Source: an uncultured Bacteroidales bacterium
GTDB taxonomy: Bacteria; Bacteroidota; Bacteroidia; Bacteroidales; VadinHA17
Direction: 5' to 3'
Length of the DNA: 64,000 nucleotides
Assembly: GCA_963698535.1 (NCBI GenBank)
Contig: CAVORD010000001.1
Coordinates: 1,895,823 to 1,959,822, forward strand
Part shown: piece after piece, positions 10,684 through 47,012 of the stretch
Position numbering within the stretch: the first letter of the stretch is position 1
Layout: each line of letters begins with the position of its first letter
Notes under the pieces: generated by a model
The model's database searches: none
What the model saw: only the letters and a program-made list of their open reading frames with translations
Told to the model about the DNA's origin: nothing
Program-made: the position numbers and the translations under genes

Positions 10684-11502
10684 ATGGATCAGGATCTTTC
10701 AAAAATCGTAAATGAGGCGTGGGAAAACAGAGAACTCCTAAAGGACTCAGCTGTTCGTCGTGTTATACGGGATGTAATTGAGTTACTGGATAAGGGCACT
10801 GTAAGAGTTGCTGAACCTGACGGTGATGGGTGGAAGGTAAACCAATGGGTAAAGAAAGCCGTTATTCTCTATTTCCCTATCCAGAAAATGGAAGTAATTG
10901 AATCCGGGGCCTTTGAATTCCATGATAAGATACCTGTAAAAAAGGATTTCGGATCTCTGGGAGTAAGAGTGGTACCACAGGCAATTGCACGGTTTGGCTC
11001 ATACCTTGCCCCCGGTGTGATCCTTATGCCTTCGTATGTAAATATTGGTGCATGGGTGGATGAGGGAACCATGGTTGATACATGGGCAACCGTCGGATCA
11101 TGCGCACAGGTGGGTAAGTATGTCCATCTAAGCGGTGGTGTTGGAATAGGAGGCGTTCTGGAACCGGTCCAGGCGGCACCGGTGGTTATAGAGGATAACT
11201 GTTTTATCGGATCACGAAGCATTGTTGTTGAAGGGGCCAGGATCTGTTCAGAAGCCGTCCTTGGAGCAAATACCGTTATTACCGGCTCAACAAGGATCAT
11301 TGATGTCTCTTCGTCCGTTCCTGTAGAGTATAAAGGATTTGTTCCTCCCAGATCAGTTGTAATACCTGGTACCGTCGCAAAAAAATTCCCGGCAGGAGAA
11401 TATGGTGTTCAATGTGCACTCATCATTGGGAAAAGAAAAGAATCAACAGATAAGAAAACATCACTTAATGACGCCCTGAGGGAGTATGATGTTCAGGCCT
11501 GA
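10684..11502 (+). CDS. dapD: 2,3,4,5-tetrahydropyridine-2,6-dicarboxylate N-succinyltransferase
   Basis: 272 aa. Left-handed beta-helix hexapeptide repeats and a typical DapD N-terminus (NEAWENRELL...). Confidence 0.85.
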   Translation: MDQDLSKIVNEAWENRELLKDSAVRRVIRDVIELLDKGTVRVAEPDGDGWKVNQWVKKAVILYFPIQKMEVIESGAFEFHDKIPVKKDFGSLGVRVVPQAIARFGSYLAPGVILMPSYVNIGAWVDEGTMVDTWATVGSCAQVGKYVHLSGGVGIGGVLEPVQAAPVVIEDNCFIGSRSIVVEGARICSEAVLGANTVITGSTRIIDVSSSVPVEYKGFVPPRSVVIPGTVAKKFPAGEYGVQCALIIGKRKESTDKKTSLNDALREYDVQA

Positions 11503-11509
11503 AACAGTC

Positions 11510-12127
11510 TCAGCCTACTATAGTCCGCTCCGATACTGAACAATCCCACTCTTTTACCGGTTCGTTCCAGTTGCCATATTTAGCACGAAGATATGCCTTA
11601 TGGTCGGCAGGAACACTATACAGCCTTCCACGATATTCAACCAGGTCGAATCCCAAATAGTGTTTTTCGGGAACACGCATTAGCTTGCCCTTTGCCATCC
11701 AATATGCGTATCCTCCATGATAATATTTTATAAATATGTCGGCTGTGAGTAGCGACCCTTTAAGAAATGGCAGAATTTTGGAGGCAAGAGAGTAAAAAAG
11801 TGGCTTTATCCTAATAACTCTCATTTCTACAGGAGAAGCAGGTTCTGGCTTTGTACTATAGTTCAGTACCCTGGTTCGATATCCGTATGAACGGAGTGCC
11901 TTGAGTACACCGGGTATCTTGTCGGCGTCGTCAGACATGATCGAAAGATCAATATCATGGTCCCATTCAAGAAACTCCCGGTCGCGAACAAATCCCAGCA
12001 GAGTTCCTCCTTCAAGGTGATATCTGATCTTATTCTCATCAAGCAAACCAACAATGATCGTTAGTAAGCTTCTGGCTTTTTCAAGCTTTCTGTCGCTGGT
12101 AAATTGCTTTGCTGCCATAATATTCAA
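11510..12127 (-). CDS. LicD family phosphotransferase (phosphocholine/phospho-alditol transfer)
   Basis: Carries the LicD signature LEGGTLLGFVRDREFLEWDHDIDLSI. Confidence 0.75.
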   Translation of the reverse strand: MNIMAAKQFTSDRKLEKARSLLTIIVGLLDENKIRYHLEGGTLLGFVRDREFLEWDHDIDLSIMSDDADKIPGVLKALRSYGYRTRVLNYSTKPEPASPVEMRVIRIKPLFYSLASKILPFLKGSLLTADIFIKYYHGGYAYWMAKGKLMRVPEKHYLGFDLVEYRGRLYSVPADHKAYLRAKYGNWNEPVKEWDCSVSERTIVG

Positions 12128-31790: not shown

Positions 31791-32843
31791 CTAACGAAAT
31801 GGGAGGAATAGAGATAATGTGCTCTTTTCAAATTCTCTCCGTTCAACGAGGTTCGCATTTATAGATGGCGCGGGCACACCTGCACCGAATCTTTTCTTTC
31901 CGGCAAAAACCCTGGCTTCATCCCATATTCCAGCCTGTAGGAACTGATTGATTATTGAAGAACCTCCTTCAATCAATATTGATGATATACCTCTGCATGA
32001 AGCTCCGAACATACTGGCTTTACATAGGTGTTCACCAGGTTCGAGCCCTGCATAATCAATATTATCACACTCCTCTCCCCGGCTGTTTGTGAATAGGATA
32101 ACTCTCTCACCTGAGGTAAAAACCGAAGAAGCCATATCCAGTTCACCCCTTCCGGAAACGATAACCTTAACCGGATCTTTTCCGTCCCAATACCTTACAT
32201 TGAGCGACGGGTTATCCTTTCTTATTGTTTCGGCCCCGACAAGTATTGCATCTTCCTGTGAGCGCCACTTATGAACCAGCACCCTCTCCTCGTCACCCGT
32301 TATCCACCATGGTTCCCTCGGGTGACCGGGAGGCCGGATAATATCAATATACCCATCAGCGCTGGCTGCCCACTTAAGAATAATATACGGCCGTTGTTTC
32401 TCATGAAAAGTGAAAAATCTCCTGTTTATCCATCTCGACTCCTCCTCAAGAACCCCGGTTATAACTTCAACACCGTTACTGCGTAATCTTTCAATCCCTC
32501 TTCCTGCAACCTTGGCACTGGTGTCTGTTGCCCCGATAACAACCTTTGGAATCCCTTTCTCCAGAATAAGATCGGCACATGGTGGTGTTTTGCCATGGTG
32601 TGAGCAAGGCTCAAGATTTACATAGAGTGTCGAGTCACCTAATAACCGATGATCTTTTACGGATTCAATGGCGTTTACTTCGGCGTGGGGCATCCCTGCA
32701 GAATGATGATACCCTTCACCAATTATTTTGCCATCGTAAACAATTACTGAACCAACCATCGGATTTGGGCTGGTATATCCTTCGGCCTTGGCAGCAAGAA
32801 CCAGGCATCGCTTGATATATCTTTTATGGTCTGAATTATTCAA
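31791..32843 (-). CDS. ribD: bifunctional riboflavin biosynthesis deaminase/reductase
   Basis: Deaminase zinc motifs HAEVNAI and PCSHHGKTPPC, plus a C-terminal reductase domain. Confidence 0.9.
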   Translation of the reverse strand: MNNSDHKRYIKRCLVLAAKAEGYTSPNPMVGSVIVYDGKIIGEGYHHSAGMPHAEVNAIESVKDHRLLGDSTLYVNLEPCSHHGKTPPCADLILEKGIPKVVIGATDTSAKVAGRGIERLRSNGVEVITGVLEEESRWINRRFFTFHEKQRPYIILKWAASADGYIDIIRPPGHPREPWWITGDEERVLVHKWRSQEDAILVGAETIRKDNPSLNVRYWDGKDPVKVIVSGRGELDMASSVFTSGERVILFTNSRGEECDNIDYAGLEPGEHLCKASMFGASCRGISSILIEGGSSIINQFLQAGIWDEARVFAGKKRFGAGVPAPSINANLVERREFEKSTLSLFLPFR

Positions 32844-39856: not shown

Positions 39857-40946
39857 TTACAAAGCCCCGAATTCCATCAGGAATGCCTTGATAAATCCGT
39901 TAAGCCCCCCGTCAAGTACTGCCTGAACATTACCAGTTTCGTAACCTGTACGCAGATCCTTTATCATCTTGTATGGATGAAGCACGTATGACCGTATCTG
40001 TGAGCCCCACTCGATCTTCTTCTTCGCACCTTCAATTATTGCCTGCTCCTCCATTCTCTTGCGCAATTCAAGCTCATAAAGGTGCGACTTGAGGATACGT
40101 AAAGCATTATCCTTGTTTTTCATCTGAGAACGGGTCTCCTGGTTCTCAATAACAAGCCCCGATGGCTGATGCCGGAGCCTTACCGCCGTCTCCACCTTAT
40201 TAACATTTTGTCCCCCTGCGCCACTCGACCTGAATGTCTCCCATGTAATATCGGCAGGGTTGATCTCTATTTCGATAGCATCATCCACCAGGGGAGATAC
40301 AAATACTGAAGCAAAGGTGGTCTGTCGCTTGCCCTGCGCATTGAAAGGAGAGATCCTTACCAGACGGTGTACGCCATTCTCACTTTTTAGATAGCCATAT
40401 CCCTTTTCCCCATCAAATTCAAGGGTTACCGACTTGATACCCACTTCATCGCCCGGCTGGAAATCCAGCTCCTTCACCTTATAACCGTTCGTCTCTCCCC
40501 ACCGGATATACATACGCATAAGCATGTCGGCCCAATCGTTGCTCTCGGTGCCCCCTGCTCCGGCATTTATCTTCATTATGGCACCCAGCTGATCTTCTTC
40601 CTTCCGGAGCATATTCCTTATCTCCAGATCACCAAGTATCGTCAGGGCTTTTTCATACTGCTCCTCGACCTCCTTTTCTGTTCCCTCGCCTTCCTTCCAG
40701 AACTGGAAGAGAACATTCATATCCTCTGTCGCACTTAGTAACTTATCGTATGATCCCGTCCAGCTCTTAAGTCCTGATATCTCCTTAAGCAACTCCTCAG
40801 CTGCCGGCGGGTCGTTCCAGAAGTCAGGCTCCCGGGTTATTTTCTCCTTCTCACTTATCTCCTTCTCTTTGCCGTCGATGTCAAAGATACCTCCTTAACG
40901 CATCCCGGCGCTCAATAATTTCCCTTATCTGCTCTATTGTAACCAT
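39857..40946 (-). CDS. prfB: peptide chain release factor 2 (programmed +1 frameshift)
   Basis: Frame 0 reads MVTIEQIREIIERRDALRRYL then TGA (40881-40883). The +1 frame continues DIDGKEKEISEKE... through SPF (NAQGKRQTTFASV) and GGQ (SSGAGGQNVNKVETAV) to 39857. Confidence 0.95.
40880..40895 (-). promoter_or_regulatory. RF2 autoregulatory +1 frameshift site
   Basis: The minus strand reads AGGAGG TAT CTT TGA C: an internal SD-like element, a CUU slippery codon and an in-frame UGA. Confidence 0.9.
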
Positions 40947-41666: not shown

Positions 41667-42191
41667 ATGAAAGCAGTTATAAATTCAATAATCCTGATAA
41701 TAATTTTCTCAACCAATTCTGTAATAGCCCAGACCGGTAAAATTGAAGGAATTGTAATTGATCAGGAAAGTGGTATCACACTTGTGGGCTCAACAGTAAC
41801 TATCGACGGAACTACAATAGGAACAACAACTGATATAGATGGTAGATTCTCTCTAAACAATATTGCCCCGGGTACCTATAAGGTTAAAATCAGCTTTGTT
41901 TCATATTCCCCGGTATTAATCGACAGTGTTATCGTTGAGGCAGGTAATGTGAGTTTGTTACAAACAATCGGACTGGTAGAAAACATGGTTTCCGCCGGTG
42001 ACATTACAGTATCCGCAATCCGGAAGACAAATACCGACATGTCGGTTATAAGTATAATTAGAAGCGCACCCAATGTTGCATCGGGTATCTCCAGTCAGCA
42101 GATTTCGAGGACTCTCGACAAGGATGCATCAGAAGTAATAAGGCGAATACCCGGTATTACCATACAGGATGATGATTTGTCAAAGACCTAA
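41667..42191 (+). pseudogene. TonB-dependent receptor, N-terminal stump only (CarboxypepD_reg domain + start of plug)
   Basis: Signal peptide, GKIEGIVIDQESGITLVGSTVTIDGT...DGRFSL, then IRRIPGITIQDD, where the ORF ends after 174 aa. The next gene starts inside its last codons. Confidence 0.7.
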
Positions 42192-42195
42192 CCAA

Positions 42196-43734
42196 ATGAT
42201 CATGAAAAACAGGAATTCACTTCTAGCTTTGGGAATCATTTTTCTCTCATTCATTCCACTTGCTGCTAATTCACAGGATCCATCATCACAGGTGCTCCTG
42301 GGAAAGGCTGACCAGTATAAGGCAAAGAAAATAGCACTCGACTACCTTTCAGAAGATAAGGCACTCGAATTGTACGGATCTGTCTCCGACAGCATCTGGA
42401 ATTTTGCCGAGCTCGGTATGCAGGAGTTCAGGTCTTCGGCTCTGCTGATATCTCTTCTTGAAGCTGAAGGATTTACAGTCGAAAAGAATATAGCAGGCAT
42501 ACCCACTGCCTTCATAGCCTCATGGGGTAGCGGCAAACCCGTAATAGGTGTTCTGGGAGAGTACGATGCCCTGCCGGGAATATCACAGAAACCCCTTACG
42601 ACGGTTAAAGATCCTATTGTCATCGGCGGACCGGGCCATGGCTGCGGTCATAATATGATGGGAACCGCCGGTGTAGCTGCAGTAATTGCCGTTAAGAAGG
42701 CCATGGAGAAAGAGAAGATCGCGGGAACAATAAGGTTTTATGGCTCACCGGCTGAAGAGACTGTGATAAGCAGACCTTATATGGTTAGAGCGGGGGTGTT
42801 TAAAGATGTCGACGTTGTAATTGACAACCACGCTTCATCCGATTTTGGAACAGGTTACGGAGTAAGTGGCAATGCAGTTATTTCAGTGCTCTTCACATTC
42901 GAAGGAAGAACGGCCCACTCAGCAGGAGCTCCCTGGGCAGGAAGAAGTGCCCTTGATGCCGTTGAAATAATGAATGTCTCTGCCAACTACCTGCGCGAAC
43001 ATCTTCACTATACTCATCGCCTGCACTATGTTATTACCGACGGCGGACAGGCACCCAATGTTGTACCCGACGCAGCTACTGTATGGTATTACGTCAGAAA
43101 CACTGATGACCGTATCGAGGATATGTATGAAAGAGTTGTTAACTGTGCGAAAGGTGCGGCCCTGGCAACAGGAACACAACTGACAGATATAAGGGTACTT
43201 ACAGGTGTCCATCAGAGACACTCTAACCAAACGGTGGCAGAACAACTTCAGCGCAATATTGAACTGATAGGACTGCCCCAATGGACAGAGGAAGAGAACA
43301 ATTTCGCCATAGGATTGCAGTCATCACTGGAAGCCAAGGAGAAGGGCTATCCTGTAAAAGTAAACGGTATCCGCCAGCGTCCGGAGATACAAGTTGGAGG
43401 AGGATCATCTGATGTTGGAGATGTTACCCTTGTAGCACCCACGGCAACCGTCAACTTCCCCGGCGGTGTTCCCGGCGCTATTGGTCACCACTGGTCGGCT
43501 GTAAGCTCATACTATGGTTCAGCTGCCCGCAAAGGAGTGATAGCCGGAGCAAAGGTGATGTCGGCAACGGCCCTGGATTATCTTACCAATAAACCGTTGC
43601 TTGAAAAAACAAGAAAAGAGTTTGAGGAGTACAGCAAAACACATCCGTACAAATCATTTCTCCCTGAGGATGCAATGCCTCCACTCGACCTCAACAGGGA
43701 CATAATGCAGAAGTTCATCAATTCGAATAGGTAA
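42196..43734 (+). CDS. M20 family amidohydrolase/peptidase (AbgB-like), secreted
   Basis: Signal peptide plus metal-binding motifs GGPGHGCGHN and GSPAEE. Confidence 0.8.
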   Translation: MIMKNRNSLLALGIIFLSFIPLAANSQDPSSQVLLGKADQYKAKKIALDYLSEDKALELYGSVSDSIWNFAELGMQEFRSSALLISLLEAEGFTVEKNIAGIPTAFIASWGSGKPVIGVLGEYDALPGISQKPLTTVKDPIVIGGPGHGCGHNMMGTAGVAAVIAVKKAMEKEKIAGTIRFYGSPAEETVISRPYMVRAGVFKDVDVVIDNHASSDFGTGYGVSGNAVISVLFTFEGRTAHSAGAPWAGRSALDAVEIMNVSANYLREHLHYTHRLHYVITDGGQAPNVVPDAATVWYYVRNTDDRIEDMYERVVNCAKGAALATGTQLTDIRVLTGVHQRHSNQTVAEQLQRNIELIGLPQWTEEENNFAIGLQSSLEAKEKGYPVKVNGIRQRPEIQVGGGSSDVGDVTLVAPTATVNFPGGVPGAIGHHWSAVSSYYGSAARKGVIAGAKVMSATALDYLTNKPLLEKTRKEFEEYSKTHPYKSFLPEDAMPPLDLNRDIMQKFINSNR

Positions 43735-43784
43735 TTCTTATATTGGCACTATCTTTGTGCCATAAAAGCCAAATACCTATTCCT

Positions 43785-44237
43785 ATGACAAAGAAAGTTC
43801 TGTTGACCGTTCTTATATCCGGACTTATACTTCTTTCAGCCTGTAAGGGCTTCAAATACCACGTCTATGGGTTCGAGTTTACCAATGAAACCGACCGCGA
43901 TGTGTCTGTATCGTTCCTTGTTAAGACAGGATCACCTTATACTGCCAGTCTTAAACCAGGGGCCGACACAATATTCTATCAGGAGCGTCGTATGGCAAAA
44001 GACTTCGACAATCCTGTATCGATGTTCAGGGAGTATTTCAGGGAGGTAAAGATATTCTTCAGCGGAATAACTCCTTATGTAAAGTTTGAAGAGGGTTACG
44101 ACCCCCTTAACTTCAATCCGGAATATGATATCTTCGAGCTGACAAAAGCATGGGAATTCGCAATCAGGGACATGGACAATCCCGCCGGCAGGATGGGATC
44201 CGGAGCTATATATCTATACCCTGCGCATCAAACCTGA
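43785..44237 (+). CDS. hypothetical lipoprotein
   Basis: ATG 43785 gives MTKKVLLTVLISGLILLSAC (lipobox). No recognisable family. Confidence 0.5.
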   Translation: MTKKVLLTVLISGLILLSACKGFKYHVYGFEFTNETDRDVSVSFLVKTGSPYTASLKPGADTIFYQERRMAKDFDNPVSMFREYFREVKIFFSGITPYVKFEEGYDPLNFNPEYDIFELTKAWEFAIRDMDNPAGRMGSGAIYLYPAHQT

Positions 44238-44341
44238 AAATGTGCTGATCCAGCTTAAATAAAGTCAAACTCATTTCACACATTTTTATCTCTTATTGAC
44301 CAGGCTATTTTACAATTTTAAGAAATTTGTAATTTAGCTGT

Positions 44342-44887
44342 ATGTCTCGCGGCTATAGGATTACTGACCAACATGGCCTGTACTTTCTGACTTTTCAGGT
44401 TGTCGACTGGATAGACCTTTTCAGCCGCAAGAATTATCGTGACATTATAATTGACTCACTGAAGTATTGCATTGATAACAAGGGATTGCAGCTTTTCGCA
44501 TATGTTATTATGACCAACCACATCCATCTGATCGCAAACTGTCCTGAAGGCAATTTAAGCGATGTTATACGGGATTTCAAGAAATTCACTTCTAAAAGTT
44601 TTCTGGACATCGCGATCACAGTCACAGAAAGCCGCCGTAGCTGGATGATCGACAGATTCAGAGCACATGCTGCGTCACATAAACGCAATGAAAATTTTCA
44701 GATCTGGACACACGAAAACCACCCGATAGAACTCTATTCAGGTAAGTTTGTCAGTCAAAAACTTAATTATATTCACAATAATCCTGTAAAGGCAGGCATT
44801 GTTGAAAAACCGGAAGACTATCAATATTCAAGTGCAAGAAACTATGCCGGATTGGATGCAAAAATTGAAGTTACCTTGTTGTTTTAA
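44342..44887 (+). CDS. REP-associated tyrosine transposase (RAYT; IS200/IS605 Y1 HUH family), solitary
   Basis: HUH motif MTNHIHLIA and C-terminal NPVKAGIVEKPEDYQYSSARNY. No TnpB gene and no inverted repeats seen. Confidence 0.8.
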   Translation: MSRGYRITDQHGLYFLTFQVVDWIDLFSRKNYRDIIIDSLKYCIDNKGLQLFAYVIMTNHIHLIANCPEGNLSDVIRDFKKFTSKSFLDIAITVTESRRSWMIDRFRAHAASHKRNENFQIWTHENHPIELYSGKFVSQKLNYIHNNPVKAGIVEKPEDYQYSSARNYAGLDAKIEVTLLF

Positions 44888-45005: not shown

Positions 45006-45028
45006 GTTCGTAGTCTGAGACTACGAAC
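45006..45028. repeat. perfect 10-bp-stem palindrome (REP-like hairpin) between convergent genes
   Basis: GTTCGTAGTC-TGA-GACTACGAAC. No U-tract on either strand. Contains a GTAG tetranucleotide. Confidence 0.6.
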
Positions 45029-45063: not shown

Positions 45064-46347
45064 CTAATAAACACGGTACCCTGAAAATGAGCCGGTACCT
45101 GATTCAGACGAGGAACCAGTGTTAATCCGAACTGTTACATACTGACCTGCATTAAGCTTAATTGTAATAGAGCGATGCAAAAGCATGCCTTGATTAATAC
45201 CTGTTTGAAGTGTTTCGTATAAAAACCCGTCAACATAGACATACAATTTCCTTACATCGCCGATACCTGTAGCATTAAATCCAATATTAAAGGTGTAAAT
45301 TCCGGCTAAAGGTGCTGTAAATCTTCCAGTATTGGGATCATAAGATAAAGAACTGTCATACTCTTCCCCGTCAGCAATGAAATCATAATCAGTAACAAAA
45401 CTCAACCCGGTTACTGAGACAGTCCTCTTCGCCCTAAACGCCACCATATTGCTACTCAGGTTAACACTTTTCGTAACACCTCCCTCAACGATTTCGAGGT
45501 TTGTTCCGTTTACTCTGACATCTGTAATTGCTTCATTTGTAGGATCAGCATCAGCATCATTTTTCAGCTCCGACAGGTCGATCTTAGCCGTCGAATTACT
45601 TATCCCTATCAGCCTGTTTCCTGCGTCCCAGTTAAGGGTCTGGTTATAAGGATTGAGATTAATTGAGTCCGGAGAAGCCAATTTGGTTACCTTAAGATAA
45701 TGGTTAACGAGTTTCAGGTCCTGTAACTCATTCGTCGGGTCAAAGTCAGCATCATTCTTAAGTGATGTAAGGTCGACCTCATTGATTTTTATTCCGCCAA
45801 TCTTACTTAATATTGATAATATGTTACCATCAAACGACAGTGCCTGATCATCAGTGGCAGGATCTCCCGGATCTCCCTTCGGCCCTGCCGGTCCAGGTGT
45901 TCCCGGTATTCCCTGCGGTCCTGGTTCCAGCGACTTTAAAGCATAGAGAGCATAGGGGACAGCCATGAACTGCATGGTCCCCATCTCCAGGAAATCATTG
46001 GCAAATTTTATCTCAACCTTCAGATAGTGGTTCAGACTGCCCCAGTCGATCTGGCCAAATGTTACCGATCCGCCAGTGGGCGTGCCCTTACCCACTATAA
46101 GGGAGAATACTCCATATTTCGAGGTCTTGACACCGGAATGTAACTCCTCATAGACCACCGTTCCCAGGGGACTGCCGGAGAGGATCGTAAACTTTACCGA
46201 AAGGTCCTTGTCTGCAAGCTCCCTGCCCGTATTATCTCTGGCCACAGCCTGATAGTGTATCCCGGCAGGTACATTTTGTGCTTCCAATATTCCCGGGACT
46301 GCGGAGAACAACAGTACTGCTAATAATATGGAGAATAACCTTTTCAT
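45064..46347 (-). CDS. secreted protein with collagen-like Gly-X-Y stretch and C-terminal C1q/TNF-like jelly-roll domain
   Basis: Signal peptide. GPQGIPGTPGPAGPKGDPGDP (7 G-X-Y triplets). Two NDAD.DPTNE repeats. C-terminus ...GRFTAPLAGIYTFNIGF...YVTVRIN... Confidence 0.65.
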   Translation of the reverse strand: MKRLFSILLAVLLFSAVPGILEAQNVPAGIHYQAVARDNTGRELADKDLSVKFTILSGSPLGTVVYEELHSGVKTSKYGVFSLIVGKGTPTGGSVTFGQIDWGSLNHYLKVEIKFANDFLEMGTMQFMAVPYALYALKSLEPGPQGIPGTPGPAGPKGDPGDPATDDQALSFDGNILSILSKIGGIKINEVDLTSLKNDADFDPTNELQDLKLVNHYLKVTKLASPDSINLNPYNQTLNWDAGNRLIGISNSTAKIDLSELKNDADADPTNEAITDVRVNGTNLEIVEGGVTKSVNLSSNMVAFRAKRTVSVTGLSFVTDYDFIADGEEYDSSLSYDPNTGRFTAPLAGIYTFNIGFNATGIGDVRKLYVYVDGFLYETLQTGINQGMLLHRSITIKLNAGQYVTVRINTGSSSESGTGSFSGYRVY

Positions 46348-46358
46348 AATGACAGGTA

Positions 46359-46865
46359 TTACATTTTTTCAATCTTAAAAACACGGTCGATCCGGCCATC
46401 ATCACCGATAACCCTTACCAGATAAATCCCTTTACTGAAATTCGACATATCCACGATCTCCTCAATAAAATGCTGATCAGAGAATCCGCACTTATCTGAG
46501 TAGACAAGGGTGCCGCTGAAACTATAAATATGTATGACGTACGATGCTGCTGCATCGCCATAAAAAAGAATTTTCAACTCACGTGTAACCGGATTGGGAT
46601 AGGCATTTACTCCCGTTCCTTTCGGTTTGCTGACAAACACATCTTTAACTCTGGGCTGCTGAAAACCTTGAGTAAGTGCAAACGATGATATATCAAAAAG
46701 AACAACCGCTGTCTCACCAACGGTCTGTGAAACGGAATATCCCTGAACTGTAGTCACTGATGCTGCCGGCAAAAATACCTGATGTGAAACCTGCTGCCCT
46801 GAGGTCTGGGCAAGGGACAAAAATAAACTTACTAAAAACAGATATGTTTTACTGCTTTTGGTCAT
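46359..46865 (-). CDS. small T9SS type A sorting (C-terminal) domain protein
   Basis: Signal peptide, LTQGFQQP motif, and a C-terminal domain YPNPVTRELKI...GIYLVRVIGDDG. Confidence 0.7.
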   Translation of the reverse strand: MTKSSKTYLFLVSLFLSLAQTSGQQVSHQVFLPAASVTTVQGYSVSQTVGETAVVLFDISSFALTQGFQQPRVKDVFVSKPKGTGVNAYPNPVTRELKILFYGDAAASYVIHIYSFSGTLVYSDKCGFSDQHFIEEIVDMSNFSKGIYLVRVIGDDGRIDRVFKIEKM

Positions 46866-47012
46866 AAATGAAATTTAACCTCCAAAAATATAAAAAAAAT
46901 TCATCTGACCTAACCATTTAATGCCATAATGGTAATTAAGGATAAGATGAAAAAGCAATTCCATGGAGGTAATTATTAAGGAATTTTTAGAAAAAAGCAG
47001 TAAATATGTATT

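What the first reader, a model, noticed from the sequence alone, without database searches (positions are those of the whole stretch)
45064..46865. Collagen-like/C1q-like secreted protein is co-transcribed with a small T9SS-sorted protein
The 427-aa protein combines several parts. It has a conserved N-terminal beta-rich domain and a short collagen triple-helix segment of seven G-X-Y triplets. It also has two NDAD.DPTNE linker repeats and a C-terminal domain whose strand pattern resembles C1q/TNF trimeric jelly-rolls. This is the architecture of fibre or adhesin tips. It lacks a T9SS C-terminal domain itself, but the gene 11 nt upstream encodes a 168-aa protein that has one. The small protein may therefore act as a carrier or anchor.
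Basis: partly seen in the sequence, partly recalled or inferred. Interest (0 to 1): 0.55.

Follow-up and report, generated by a model that had tools for sequence, protein, structure and literature searches.

The report
T9SS-partnered collagen/C1q surface fibre cassette
A Bacteroidales chromosome carries a strictly conserved two-gene unit: a tiny protein with a type IX secretion sorting signal, followed by a trimeric fibre with a swappable C1q-like head whose base domain matches that of the Bdellovibrio 'mosaic adhesive trimer' fibres. This makes the tiny protein a testable candidate for the unknown surface anchor of such fibres.

Summary
There is a 427-aa protein with a signal peptide, a β-rich N-domain, seven G-X-Y triplets, two NDAD.DPTNE motifs and a C-terminal C1q domain. 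The C1q domain scores above the Pfam threshold, and all top 50 Foldseek PDB hits are gC1q heads. Eleven nt upstream lies a 168-aa protein with a type A T9SS C-terminal domain.

New findings:
1. The pairing is present in 80/80 loci from different Bacteroidales/Bacteroidia species (gap mode 11 nt), at a fixed chromosomal position next to rnhB.
2. The fibre's N-domain matches NCBIfam Bdello_MAT_N in 125/125 relatives tested. It heads a superfamily of more than 20,000 clusters with mosaic tips (C1q, Lcl_C, Peptidase_S74, YadA head and others).
3. The small protein's ~50-aa passenger (invariant TQGFQQP, matching no Pfam family) occurs only next to such fibre genes. It is fused to type A or type B T9SS sorting domains and is predicted not to fold on its own.
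4. C1q tips are exchanged between lineages at the conserved junction motifs.

Best reading: the small protein is a T9SS-exported adaptor that tethers, and possibly carries, a CTD-less adhesive fibre. Binding and export are inferred, not shown. I class this as a new variant of a known kind.

The parts
46883..46890 (-). Candidate Bacteroidetes-type -7 promoter element TATTTTTG (TAnnTTTG), 17 nt upstream of the small gene's ATG
   Evidence: Read directly from the sequence. The consensus is from established knowledge of Bacteroidetes promoters. The sigma-70 scan was uninformative, with 5 sites found against 5.9 expected. Inferred only.
46359..46865 (-). Small gene (168 aa): signal peptide, PASS passenger, type A T9SS C-terminal domain
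   Evidence: ORF. Por_Secre_tail and TIGR04183 score above their cutoffs. A homologue lies directly upstream of the fibre gene in 80/80 loci.
46797..46865 (-). Small protein signal peptide (residues 1-23). The predicted mature N-terminus is the invariant Gln24.
   Evidence: Hydrophobic h-region, modelled as helix 4-23. Q24 is invariant in 53 sequences. The cleavage site is inferred.
46638..46796 (-). PASS passenger module (residues 24-76), with invariant G50-E51 and T65-QGFQQP71
   Evidence: Conservation. pLDDT is 39-50 despite the conservation. No Pfam family matches it. Its profile hits only ORFs next to MAT_N-like genes.
46362..46610 (-). Type A T9SS C-terminal sorting domain (residues 86-168)
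   Evidence: PF18962 scores 39.2 bits and TIGR04183 scores 35.8 bits. pLDDT is about 95. Foldseek hits are the PorU CTD, mirolase CTD 8qb1 (target-normalised TM 0.69) and PorZ.
46348..46358 (-). 11-nt intergenic spacer between the small gene's stop and the fibre gene's start
   Evidence: The spacer is 10-12 nt in 48 of 76 related loci, with a mode of 11.
45064..46347 (-). Fibre gene (427 aa): signal peptide, MAT_N-like base, collagen, β-stalk, C1q head
   Evidence: ORF. More than 1,047 homologues share the architecture. Model m9833e8192de6.
46279..46347 (-). Fibre signal peptide (residues 1-23, ...ILEA|QN). It has no lipobox Cys.
   Evidence: Read from the sequence. Modelled as helix 2-15. Q24 is nearly invariant.
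45928..46278 (-). MAT_N-like β-rich base domain (residues 24-140)
   Evidence: NF053851 Bdello_MAT_N scores E 3.1e-11 and 43.3 bits, below the curated cutoff of 60. 40/40 orthologues and 85/85 distant relatives hit it. 21,842 representative clusters match at E<=1e-3. pLDDT is about 90. No PDB sequence relative.
45859..45921 (-). Collagen-like segment, seven G-X-Y triplets (residues 143-163)
   Evidence: Best PDB sequence hits are collagen heterotrimer peptides. The family shows 4-18 triplets.
45451..45858 (-). β-hairpin stalk (residues 164-299), starting at the invariant GDPA.D.Q.LS junction. Its length varies across the family.
   Evidence: Alignment. Strands in the model. Protein lengths range from 372 to 826 aa.
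45727..45753 (-). Junction motif 1, DADFDPTNE (residues 199-207)
45532..45558 (-). Junction motif 2, DADADPTNE (residues 264-272). Tip-swap breakpoints fall at this position in related loci.
   Evidence: Breakpoints fall directly after this motif in L031/L066 and L064/L067.
45067..45450 (-). C-terminal C1q-fold head (residues 300-427)
   Evidence: PF00386 scores 27.4 bits, above 23.7. Foldseek against the PDB returns gC1q heads for all top 50 hits. pLDDT is about 95.
45006..45028 (-). Perfect 10-bp hairpin (GTTCGTAGTC-tca-GACTACGAAC) 36 nt after the fibre stop codon. Probable terminator.
   Evidence: unique in the window, 0 expected by chance. It has no T-tract, so a terminator function is inferred.

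Best explanation
The two genes form one operon that builds a cell-surface fibre.

Proposed mechanism:
1. The fibre protein is exported by Sec.
2. It trimerises through its C1q head, β-stalk and short collagen segment.
3. It ends in a C1q-type ligand-binding head that lineages exchange by recombination at the conserved junction motifs (SLEPGP/GDPA.D.Q.LS and DADADPTNE.Q).
4. It has no T9SS sorting domain of its own. Its conserved MAT_N-like base is bound by the ~50-residue PASS segment of the small protein.
5. The small protein carries a type A T9SS C-terminal domain, so it is taken through the T9SS translocon and fixed to the outer surface. In model organisms this happens by CTD removal and attachment to anionic LPS.
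6. The small protein would therefore tether the fibre to the cell surface, and may also carry it across the outer membrane as a hitchhiker.

Shown here: the domain identities, the invariant gene pairing, the exclusive co-occurrence of PASS with MAT_N-like genes, the fusion of PASS to T9SS sorting domains of both types, and tip swapping.

Inferred: PASS binding to the base domain, the export route, surface location and what the head binds.
For: 1. Pairing. A full-length homologue of the small protein (E 1e-13 to 1e-43) lies directly upstream on the same strand in 80/80 loci from different species. The spacer is 10-12 nt in 48/76 loci.
2. Generality beyond the orthologues. In a sample of distant MAT_N-like genes with other tips, 35 of 56 loci with enough upstream sequence have an upstream PASS/CTD gene. 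Where both flanks are visible, 18 of 22 have a PASS gene. Partners precede fibres of 1,400-1,550 aa (L114, L159). They also precede fibres with MopE-like or Lcl_C tips (L161, L162).
3. Specificity. All 120 PASS hits in 1.5 Mb of fetched DNA lie next to a MAT_N-like gene.
4. Link to T9SS. PASS always follows a signal peptide. It is fused to a type A CTD (PF18962) or, in L161, to a type B CTD (CHU_C) followed by PorP/SprF.
5. Partner-dependent folding. PASS is the most conserved part of the small protein (invariant TQGFQQP), yet it is modelled at pLDDT 39-50 while the CTD is at about 95.
6. The fibre lacks its own route. It has no CTD hit at E<=1 and no lipobox.
7. Expected role of the base domain. 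It matches the MAT N-domain. Caulton et al. propose that domain binds an unidentified surface element (PMC10769870).
8. Functional precedent. BclA, which is also collagen plus a C1q-like head, is attached through its N-terminal domain to the dedicated anchor protein BxpB (PMC10470788).
9. Co-evolution. PASS and N-domain distances correlate after removing the RNase HII signal (partial rho 0.43, 0/500 permutations). This is somewhat more than for CTD and N-domain (0.31).
Against: - No interaction, export or localisation was tested. Co-folding could not be run with the permitted inputs.
- The co-evolution signal is weak and is confounded by shared locus history. The CTD also correlates with the N-domain.
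- Four of 22 distant loci with both flanks visible had no PASS profile hit, and three of these (L125, L136, L151) have none within 650 nt. Several marine loci with tandem N-domain genes also show none in the available sequence. An adjacent partner is therefore not obligatory.
- Bdellovibrio has MAT fibres on its surface (PMC10769870) but is not known to have a T9SS (own knowledge). The base domain can therefore reach the surface by another route.
- I found no published precedent for hitchhiking through T9SS.
- The match to the MAT_N model covers only profile positions 9-79 of 162 and is below NCBI's cutoff.
Confidence: 0.5

Rival explanations
1. The fibre reaches the surface on its own, by the same still unknown route that Bdellovibrio MAT fibres use. 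The small T9SS protein would be a co-regulated accessory of the same structure, for example a base spacer, cap or maturation factor, rather than the anchor or carrier.
For: - MAT fibres are displayed on the surface of Bdellovibrio (PMC10769870), an organism not known to have a T9SS (own knowledge).
- Some distant MAT_N-like loci have no adjacent PASS gene.
- The co-evolution signal does not separate PASS from the CTD convincingly.
Against: - The invariant pairing (80/80) and the exclusive occurrence of PASS beside MAT_N-like genes demand a specific functional tie.
- After CTD removal the small protein would be only about 60 residues, and these are predicted unfolded alone. That leaves little room for any function other than binding something.
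- PASS is attached to either type of T9SS sorting domain. This suggests that surface delivery of PASS is what is conserved.
Confidence: 0.25
2. The small protein is a periplasmic or secreted assembly chaperone or quality-control factor. It would hold the fibre base until trimerisation and then be removed through T9SS. It would not form part of the final structure.
For: - The passenger is conserved but intrinsically unfolded.
- Other trimeric fibres need dedicated chaperones. Peptidase_S74 chaperone domains occur in 8 of 85 distant relatives and in 13 of the 21 Bdellovibrio MATs.
- The short spacer is compatible with translational coupling, which would favour stoichiometric production.
Against: - A T9SS CTD is an export and anchoring signal, which is an odd feature for a purely periplasmic chaperone.
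- Known fibre chaperones act at the C-terminal end, where trimerisation starts, not at the base. This rests on established knowledge of S74 and T4 gp57-type systems.
- PASS is also found fused to large multidomain surface proteins (L113, L114, L123).
Confidence: 0.12
3. The pair is a remnant of a prophage or tailocin: a tail fibre with a C1q receptor-binding tip plus an accessory gene.
For: - Structural matches in the viral library are phage tail fibres and phage 'C1q domain containing' proteins.
- Distant relatives carry phage-type domains such as Peptidase_S74, Phage_depo_C and End_tail_spike.
Against: - tblastn found no match in 50,697 phage genomes.
- No phage genes flank the pair. It sits in a conserved housekeeping neighbourhood in most loci: rnhB in 74/80, then the S46 peptidase, MarC and RNase HI, with prfB on the other side.
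- Both proteins have Sec signal peptides, and one has a T9SS CTD. These are features of cell-envelope proteins, not virion proteins.
Confidence: 0.03

Closest known systems
Bdellovibrio bacteriovorus mosaic adhesive trimer (MAT) fibres (Caulton et al. 2024, PMC10769870), especially Bd2734 with its TNF/C1q-like tip
   Same: - Both have a signal peptide followed directly by a conserved β-rich domain of ~120-130 aa. This domain is detectably homologous to NCBIfam Bdello_MAT_N (E 3e-11 here, and 125/125 relatives hit it).
- Both have a trimeric fibre stalk and an independently folding, exchangeable C-terminal tip.
- Some MAT tips are TNF/C1q-like.
- The wider superfamily here shows the same tip mosaic, including Peptidase_S74.
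   Different: - The organism is a non-predatory environmental Bacteroidales.
- There is a single copy at a fixed core-genome position, rather than a 21-member repertoire.
- The protein is much shorter (427 aa, against roughly 600-1,150 for MATs).
- It has a collagen segment.
- The score is below the curated family cutoff (43 against 60 bits), and only the first half of the model is matched.
- It has a dedicated T9SS-sorted partner gene. No partner is known for the Bdellovibrio MATs, whose base-binding element is unidentified.
Bacillus anthracis exosporium filament BclA and its anchor BxpB (PMC10470788)
   Same: - Both are a collagen-like triple helix capped by a C-terminal C1q/TNF-like trimeric head.
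- BclA is attached to the surface through its N-terminal region, which binds a dedicated small anchor protein. This is the logic proposed here.
- Collagen repeat number varies in both.
   Different: - There is no sequence relationship at the base or the anchor.
- The BclA_C Pfam model does not hit this protein.
- BclA has a 38-residue N-terminal peptide, not a folded base domain.
- BxpB is itself a trimeric jelly-roll in a spore basal layer, not a T9SS cargo.
- BclA belongs to a Gram-positive spore, whereas this system belongs to a diderm outer membrane.
Type A T9SS cargo proteins (e.g. P. gingivalis gingipains, T. forsythia mirolase)
   Same: The small protein has a Sec signal peptide, a type A CTD scoring above the curated cutoffs, and a CTD fold matching solved CTDs.
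   Different: - Its passenger is only about 60 residues and has no enzymatic or adhesive domain. It seems to exist only to present the PASS segment.
- The functional 'cargo' would be a separate CTD-less protein. I found no description of that for T9SS.
Phage and giant-virus fibres with collagen repeats and C1q tips; Legionella collagen-like adhesin Lcl
   Same: - Both have a trimeric collagen or β-stalk with a globular lectin-like head used for attachment.
- Lcl_C tips occur on 10 of 85 distant relatives of the base domain.
   Different: - There is no sequence match to phage genomes.
- The genomic context is cellular.
- Lcl has no MAT_N-like base. It is a Legionella T2SS substrate (own knowledge).
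Metazoan C1q family (C1q, C1QL, cerebellins, adiponectin, collagen VIII/X NC1)
   Same: - The C-terminal head has the same fold (target-normalised TM 0.7-0.8).
- Both place a collagen segment before the C-terminal head.
   Different: - Sequence identity is only 15-24%.
- The collagen run is very short.
- A β-hairpin stalk and a bacterial base domain are interposed between the collagen and the head.
- Nothing connects it with complement.

Membership tests
C1q domain (Pfam PF00386) | Profile score at or above the Pfam gathering score | tested here: met
   27.4 bits against 23.7, residues 326-424. Most of the top 120 homologues carry a precomputed PF00386 hit.
C1q domain (Pfam PF00386) | Ten-strand jelly-roll fold of gC1q heads | tested here: met
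   AF2 model pLDDT is about 95 for residues 300-427. All top 50 Foldseek PDB hits are gC1q domains, with E about 1e-8 and target-normalised TM 0.68-0.81.
C1q domain (Pfam PF00386) | Assembly into a trimeric head | not testable with these tools
   Only monomer prediction was available. The adjacent G-X-Y run implies a trimer.
Mosaic adhesive trimer (MAT) fibres (NCBIfam NF053851; Caulton 2024) | Significant similarity of the post-signal-peptide domain to the MAT N-domain model | tested here: met
   E 3.1e-11, residues 22-92 against model positions 9-79. 40/40 orthologues and 85/85 distant relatives hit it, with best E of 4e-18.
Mosaic adhesive trimer (MAT) fibres (NCBIfam NF053851; Caulton 2024) | Score reaches NCBIfam's curated cutoff (60 bits), with the full-length domain matched | tested here: not met
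   43.3 bits, with only about half of the 162-position model aligned.
Mosaic adhesive trimer (MAT) fibres (NCBIfam NF053851; Caulton 2024) | Conserved base combined with exchangeable, diverse C-terminal tips | tested here: met
   The superfamily carries C1q, Collagen, Lcl_C, Peptidase_S74, YadA_head, Ice_binding, Laminin_G_3, LRR and Phage_depo_C tips. Within the orthologous locus, L031/L066 share 97% in the base but 35% in the tip.
Mosaic adhesive trimer (MAT) fibres (NCBIfam NF053851; Caulton 2024) | Surface-displayed trimeric fibre used for target recognition | not testable with these tools
   Requires microscopy or biochemistry.
T9SS type A cargo (small protein) | C-terminal sorting domain above the curated cutoffs (PF18962, TIGR04183) | tested here: met
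   39.2 bits against 27, and 35.8 bits against 23.
T9SS type A cargo (small protein) | β-sandwich CTD fold like solved CTDs | tested here: met
   pLDDT is about 95. Foldseek hits are PorU 6za2, the mirolase CTD 8qb1 (target-normalised TM 0.69) and PorZ 5m11.
T9SS type A cargo (small protein) | T9SS-dependent export, CTD cleavage by PorU and A-LPS attachment | not testable with these tools
   Needs mutants and proteomics. T9SS core genes were not looked for in this genome.
T9SS cargo (large fibre protein) | Own type A or type B C-terminal sorting domain | tested here: not met
   No Por_Secre_tail, CHU_C or TIGR04183 hit at E<=1. The profile built from the small family's CTD hits only the small gene in the window.
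Bacterial collagen-like proteins (Pfam PF01391) | Collagen triple-helix repeat profile above the gathering score | tested here: not met
   16.8 bits against 27.2. Seven perfect G-X-Y triplets are nevertheless present, and longer runs in homologues do reach PF01391.
BclA-type exosporium filaments (Pfam PF18573 BclA_C) | BclA C-terminal domain profile | tested here: not met
   There is no hit in this protein at E<=1. Three homologues have a precomputed hit.
Phage tail fibre | Sequence relatives in phage genomes, or a prophage gene context | tested here: not met
   tblastn found no match in 50,697 phage records. The housekeeping synteny is conserved. The only resemblance to phage C1q-tipped fibres is at the fold level.

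The most novel reading that the evidence does not exclude
PASS would be a dedicated T9SS adaptor module. It would be a ~50-residue segment, exported and surface-fixed through a type A or type B sorting domain, that captures the MAT_N-type base of CTD-less trimeric fibres. That would be the first hitchhiker (hetero-oligomeric) cargo class for T9SS. It would also provide the first identified binding partner for the MAT fibre base, whose partner in Bdellovibrio is an acknowledged unknown. The system would then be a general plug-in display platform in Bacteroidota: one anchor, with interchangeable heads that are recombined or even DGR-mutated.
Probability: 0.4. Interest if true: 0.8.

Novelty: new variant of a known kind. 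Interest (0 to 1): 0.64.

Why it matters
1. It extends the mosaic-adhesive-trimer fibre design, described in 2024 for a bacterial predator, to a very large superfamily. More than 20,000 clusters at 50% identity match the base domain. Public annotation currently labels these proteins 'hypothetical' or 'C1q-like'.

2. It offers a concrete, testable candidate for what the conserved fibre base binds. The MAT authors left that question open.

3. If the small protein carries or tethers a protein that has no sorting domain, T9SS substrate prediction based on CTDs alone misses a whole class of surface proteins. T9SS would also gain a hitchhiker mode like those known for Tat and peroxisomal import.

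4. The swappable (and in one relative DGR-mutated) heads point to strong diversifying selection on what these uncultured anaerobic Bacteroidales attach to. The modular base, anchor and head could also be exploited for surface display.

Tried and rejected
- Co-folding of the small protein with the fibre base. I built 72 locus-paired fusion sequences but did not submit them.
- Mirror-tree co-evolution. PASS and the N-domain correlate, but so do the CTD and the N-domain. I treat it as weak and non-discriminating.
- Homology search with a PASS alignment. It returned only 18 short PASS-only ORFs and said little about architectures. The contexts of two of them were informative.
- Look-up of the exact window protein's contig: not on record.
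- Literature searches for C1q + T9SS, T9SS piggybacking and the TQGFQQP motif found nothing relevant.
- The sigma-70 promoter and terminator scan was at background level, as expected for Bacteroidota.
- Phage origin: rejected.
- A REP element explaining the downstream hairpin: rejected, because the hairpin is unique in the window.
- An unrecognised CTD on the fibre: rejected.
- Saturation as the cause of the uncorrelated C1q distances: rejected. Near-identical bases carry 35%-identical tips, while 62%-identical bases carry 80%-identical tips.
Full report
**1. Observation**

The window carries two same-strand ORFs on the minus strand. One is 46359..46865 (168 aa) and the other is 45064..46347 (427 aa). 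They are separated by 11 nt, TAA-tacctgtcatt-ATG.

The 427-aa protein has these parts:
- A Sec-type signal peptide ending ...ILEA|QN, with no lipobox cysteine.
- A conserved domain at residues ~24-140.
- Exactly seven G-X-Y triplets, GPQGIPGTPGPAGPKGDPGDP, at residues 143-163.
- A β-hairpin stalk containing NDADFDPTNE (198-207) and NDADADPTNE (263-272).
- A C-terminal domain at residues 300-427.

Pfam places the C-terminal domain in C1q at 27.4 bits, above the gathering score of 23.7. An AlphaFold2 model built on 40 homologues gives pLDDT of about 95 for this domain and about 90 for the N-terminal domain. The collagen segment is unmodelled, as expected for a monomer prediction. All top 50 Foldseek hits in the PDB are gC1q heads: Caprin-2, cerebellins, C1q A/B/C, C1QL1-3, CTRP5, adiponectin and the collagen VIII/X NC1 domains. 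Their E-values are about 1e-8 and target-normalised TM-scores are 0.68-0.81.

The large protein shows no T9SS sorting domain even at E<=1.

The small protein has a type A T9SS C-terminal domain. PF18962 scores 39.2 bits against a cutoff of 27, and TIGR04183 scores 35.8 against 23. Its modelled CTD matches the CTDs of PorU, mirolase and PorZ.

**2. The family and the locus**

The fibre protein has more than 1,047 database relatives sharing the whole architecture. The top hits are 37-55% identical. All that carry names come from Bacteroidales, Bacteroidia or Bacteroidota metagenome-assembled genomes, where they are called 'hypothetical', 'C1q-like domain-containing' or 'collagen-like'.

A scan of one genome per species found more than 512 encoding stretches, and I fetched 80 loci. 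In 80 of 80, a full-length homologue of the small protein (E 1e-13 to 1e-43) lies immediately upstream on the same strand. The spacer is 10-12 nt in 48 of 76 loci, with a mode of 11.

The pair sits at a fixed chromosomal place:
- It is divergent from RNase HII in 74/80 loci.
- The S46 dipeptidyl-peptidase, MarC and RNase HI genes lie beyond that.
- Release factor 2 and methylmalonyl-CoA mutase lie on the other side.

There are no phage genes nearby and no tblastn match in 50,697 phage genomes. This is a vertically inherited core-genome cassette. It is single-copy in the window.

A TAnnTTTG-type element (TATTTTTG, 46883-46890) lies 17 nt before the small gene's ATG. A unique perfect 10-bp hairpin (45006-45028) follows the fibre gene. 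Co-transcription is an inference from this layout.

**3. The N-terminal domain is a MAT-type fibre base**

NCBIfam's Bdello_MAT_N model ('mosaic adhesive trimer family chimeric fiber protein') matches residues 22-92 at E 3.1e-11. All 40 aligned orthologues hit it. The score of 43 bits is below the curated cutoff of 60, and only model positions 9-79 of 162 align. This is therefore homology to the domain, not membership of the curated Bdellovibrio subfamily.

Caulton et al. (PMC10769870) described 21 MAT fibres in Bdellovibrio:
- Each has a conserved β-rich domain of ~130 aa right after the signal peptide, a trimeric stalk and a diverse tip. Some tips are TNF/C1q-like.
- The authors state that the N-domain has no structural homologue. 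[quoted passage not shown]

I likewise found no PDB sequence relative for the N-domain.

An exhaustive search of 1.84 billion cluster representatives with the 117-residue domain gave 21,842 hits at E<=1e-3 and 10,498 at E<=1e-10. Nearly all of the 150 listed start at residue ~20-30, in proteins of about 100 to over 1,000 aa.

I sampled 85 of these distant relatives:
- All 85 hit Bdello_MAT_N.
- Their C-terminal parts are mosaic: C1q (15), collagen (13), Lcl_C (10), Peptidase_S74 chaperone (8), YadA head, ice-binding, laminin-G, LRR, phage depolymerase, endosialidase and BclA_C.

The window protein is thus a compact member of a very large MAT-like superfamily that annotation does not yet recognise.

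**4. Tip swapping**

I compared 52 loci in which all parts were complete:
- Distances for the base domain, the small protein's two halves and the neighbouring RNase HII all correlate with one another (Spearman 0.65-0.72).
- C1q-head distances correlate with none of them (-0.06 to 0.03).

Concrete cases:
- L031 and L066 share 97% identity in the base and 93% in RNase HII, but 35% in the head.
- L046 and L050 share 62% in the base but 80% in the head.

Pairwise alignments place the breakpoints on the conserved junctions. In L031/L066 and L064/L067 they fall directly after DADADP.NEIQ. In L046/L050 the breakpoint is at SLEPGP, between base and collagen.

Collagen triplet number (4-18) and stalk length (372-826 aa overall) also vary.

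In one distant relative (L162), the Lcl_C tip is the target of a diversity-generating retroelement. The variable repeat at 10808-10901 and the template repeat at 11492-11585 are 91% identical, and every mismatch is an adenine in the template.

All of this points to a ligand-binding head under diversifying selection.

**5. The small protein**

It consists of a signal peptide, a ~50-residue passenger that I call PASS (residues 24-76), a short Gly-rich link and the CTD. Gln24, G50-E51, T65-QGFQQP71 and P90-N-P92 are invariant in 53 sequences. No Pfam family matches PASS, and the motif is absent from the searchable literature.

In the AF2 model the CTD has pLDDT of about 95. PASS is at 39-50 even though it is the most conserved segment. 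That is the signature expected of a segment that folds only on a partner.

A PASS profile gave these results:
- In the 80 genome loci (1.09 Mb) it hits only the gene directly upstream of the fibre.
- In 80 metagenomic loci holding distant MAT_N-like genes (0.40 Mb) it gives 40 hits. Thirty-seven lie within 150 nt of the fibre gene, and the other three at 405, 479 and 1,910 nt. None lies elsewhere.
- With at least 650 nt of upstream sequence available, 35 of 56 distant loci have the upstream partner.
- With both flanks visible, 18 of 22 loci have a PASS gene.

Partners precede fibres of 1,404 and 1,554 aa (L159, L114). In some marine loci PASS heads a larger protein downstream of tandem fibre genes (L113, L123, L137, L141).

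In L161 (a Flavobacteriales genome), a 158-aa PASS plus type A CTD protein sits directly before a fibre with a MopE-like tip. The same cluster holds a PASS protein with a type B CTD (CHU_C), followed by PorP/SprF.

PASS is therefore a module that is delivered to the cell surface by either T9SS sorting route, and it is encoded only beside MAT_N-like fibres.

**6. Mechanism**

The best-supported reading is that PASS binds the fibre base. The small protein's CTD takes it through the T9SS, where in model organisms the CTD is removed and the new C-terminus is linked to anionic LPS. The fibre is thereby tethered to the surface. It may also be carried across the outer membrane as a hitchhiker, since it has no sorting domain or lipid anchor of its own.

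T9SS is known to translocate folded proteins through the 36-strand SprA barrel (PMC9251779). I found no description of hitchhiking through it.

The logic parallels BclA and BxpB in Bacillus spores. There, a collagen filament with a C1q-like head is fixed through its N-terminal region to a dedicated anchor protein (PMC10470788).

Shown here:
- Domain identities.
- Invariant pairing of the two genes.
- Exclusivity of PASS to MAT_N-like gene neighbourhoods.
- Fusion of PASS to T9SS sorting domains of both types.
- Tip exchange.

Inferred:
- The PASS/base contact.
- The export route.
- Surface location.
- The ligand.

Weak points:
- The co-evolution test does not discriminate. The partial correlation for PASS and base is 0.43, against 0.31 for CTD and base.
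- A few distant loci lack an adjacent partner.
- Bdellovibrio displays MAT fibres although it is not known to have a T9SS (own knowledge).

I put 0.5 on the anchor/carrier mechanism. I put about 0.9 on the weaker statement that the two proteins function together in one surface structure.

**7. Rivals**

- An accessory role without anchoring (0.25).
- A transient assembly chaperone (0.12).
- A prophage or tailocin remnant (0.03). This is contradicted by the synteny, the signal peptides and the absence of phage matches.

**8. Novelty and verdict**

The components are known kinds: the C1q fold, bacterial collagen, the MAT-type base and the T9SS CTD.

What appears to be new:
- A MAT-like fibre is a conserved core-genome feature of hundreds of Bacteroidales species.
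- It comes with a dedicated, previously unnamed T9SS-sorted partner module.
- Its C1q heads are exchanged at defined junctions.

I class it as a new variant of a known kind. Interest is 0.64. A T9SS or MAT specialist would find the partner module notable. It also turns an open question, namely what holds the MAT base, into a direct experiment. The central mechanistic claim is still untested.

Noticed in passing
L162:8843-13134 (JGI Ga0307990_1000040): A MAT_N-like fibre with an Lcl_C tip is followed by bAvd, GIY-YIG and a reverse transcriptase. The 94-nt variable repeat in the tip (10808-10901) and the template repeat (11492-11585) are 91% identical, and every mismatch is an A in the template. 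This is a diversity-generating retroelement acting on the fibre head.
   Followed up: yes
L161:5158-9503 (Flavobacteriales MAG JAHBUJ010000002.1): Three PASS-bearing genes lie in one cluster. A 158-aa PASS plus type A CTD gene sits directly upstream of a MAT_N-like fibre with a MopE-like tip. There is also a 79-aa PASS-only ORF. A 243-aa PASS plus CHU_C (type B CTD) protein is followed by PorP/SprF and an OmpA/TPR protein.
   Followed up: partly
window 41667-44887: A block of plus-strand genes lies between the cassette and prfB (39857-40792). It holds a truncated CarboxypepD_reg ORF overlapping the start of an M20 peptidase, a 164-aa hypothetical protein and an IS200-like Y1 transposase at 44342-44887. 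In most related genomes prfB lies about 1.5 kb from the fibre gene, so this block looks like an insertion.
   Followed up: partly
window 45006-45028: A perfect 10-bp palindromic hairpin lies 36 nt after the fibre stop codon and next to the IS200-like gene. It is unique in the window, so it is more likely a terminator than a REP element. It has no T-tract.
   Followed up: yes
protein P0196 (916 aa): One representative protein contains six tandem copies of the MAT_N-like domain, instead of a single copy at the N-terminus.
   Followed up: no
L162:6938-8371, and proteins P0323-P0340: Short PASS-only ORFs of 55-86 aa exist, some on long contigs. In L162 the PASS ORF is separated from a 349-aa Por_Secre_tail ORF by a single in-frame stop. 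That could be a pseudogene, an assembly error or read-through.
   Followed up: no
L112, L128, L133, L134, L139, L150 (marine metagenome contigs): These contigs carry tandem arrays of two or three MAT_N-like genes. They often start with a 162-aa base-only gene followed by a long fibre gene. No PASS gene is visible in the available flanks.
   Followed up: partly
L009, L034, L075, L053, L057: In a few genomes the fibre gene is split by a frameshift or truncated before or within the C1q head. These may be assembly errors in MAGs or real pseudogenisation.
   Followed up: no
window 31976-32194 (-): A weak PASS-profile hit (E 0.0014, 13.8 bits) falls inside an unrelated reading frame. It is probably noise.
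   Followed up: no
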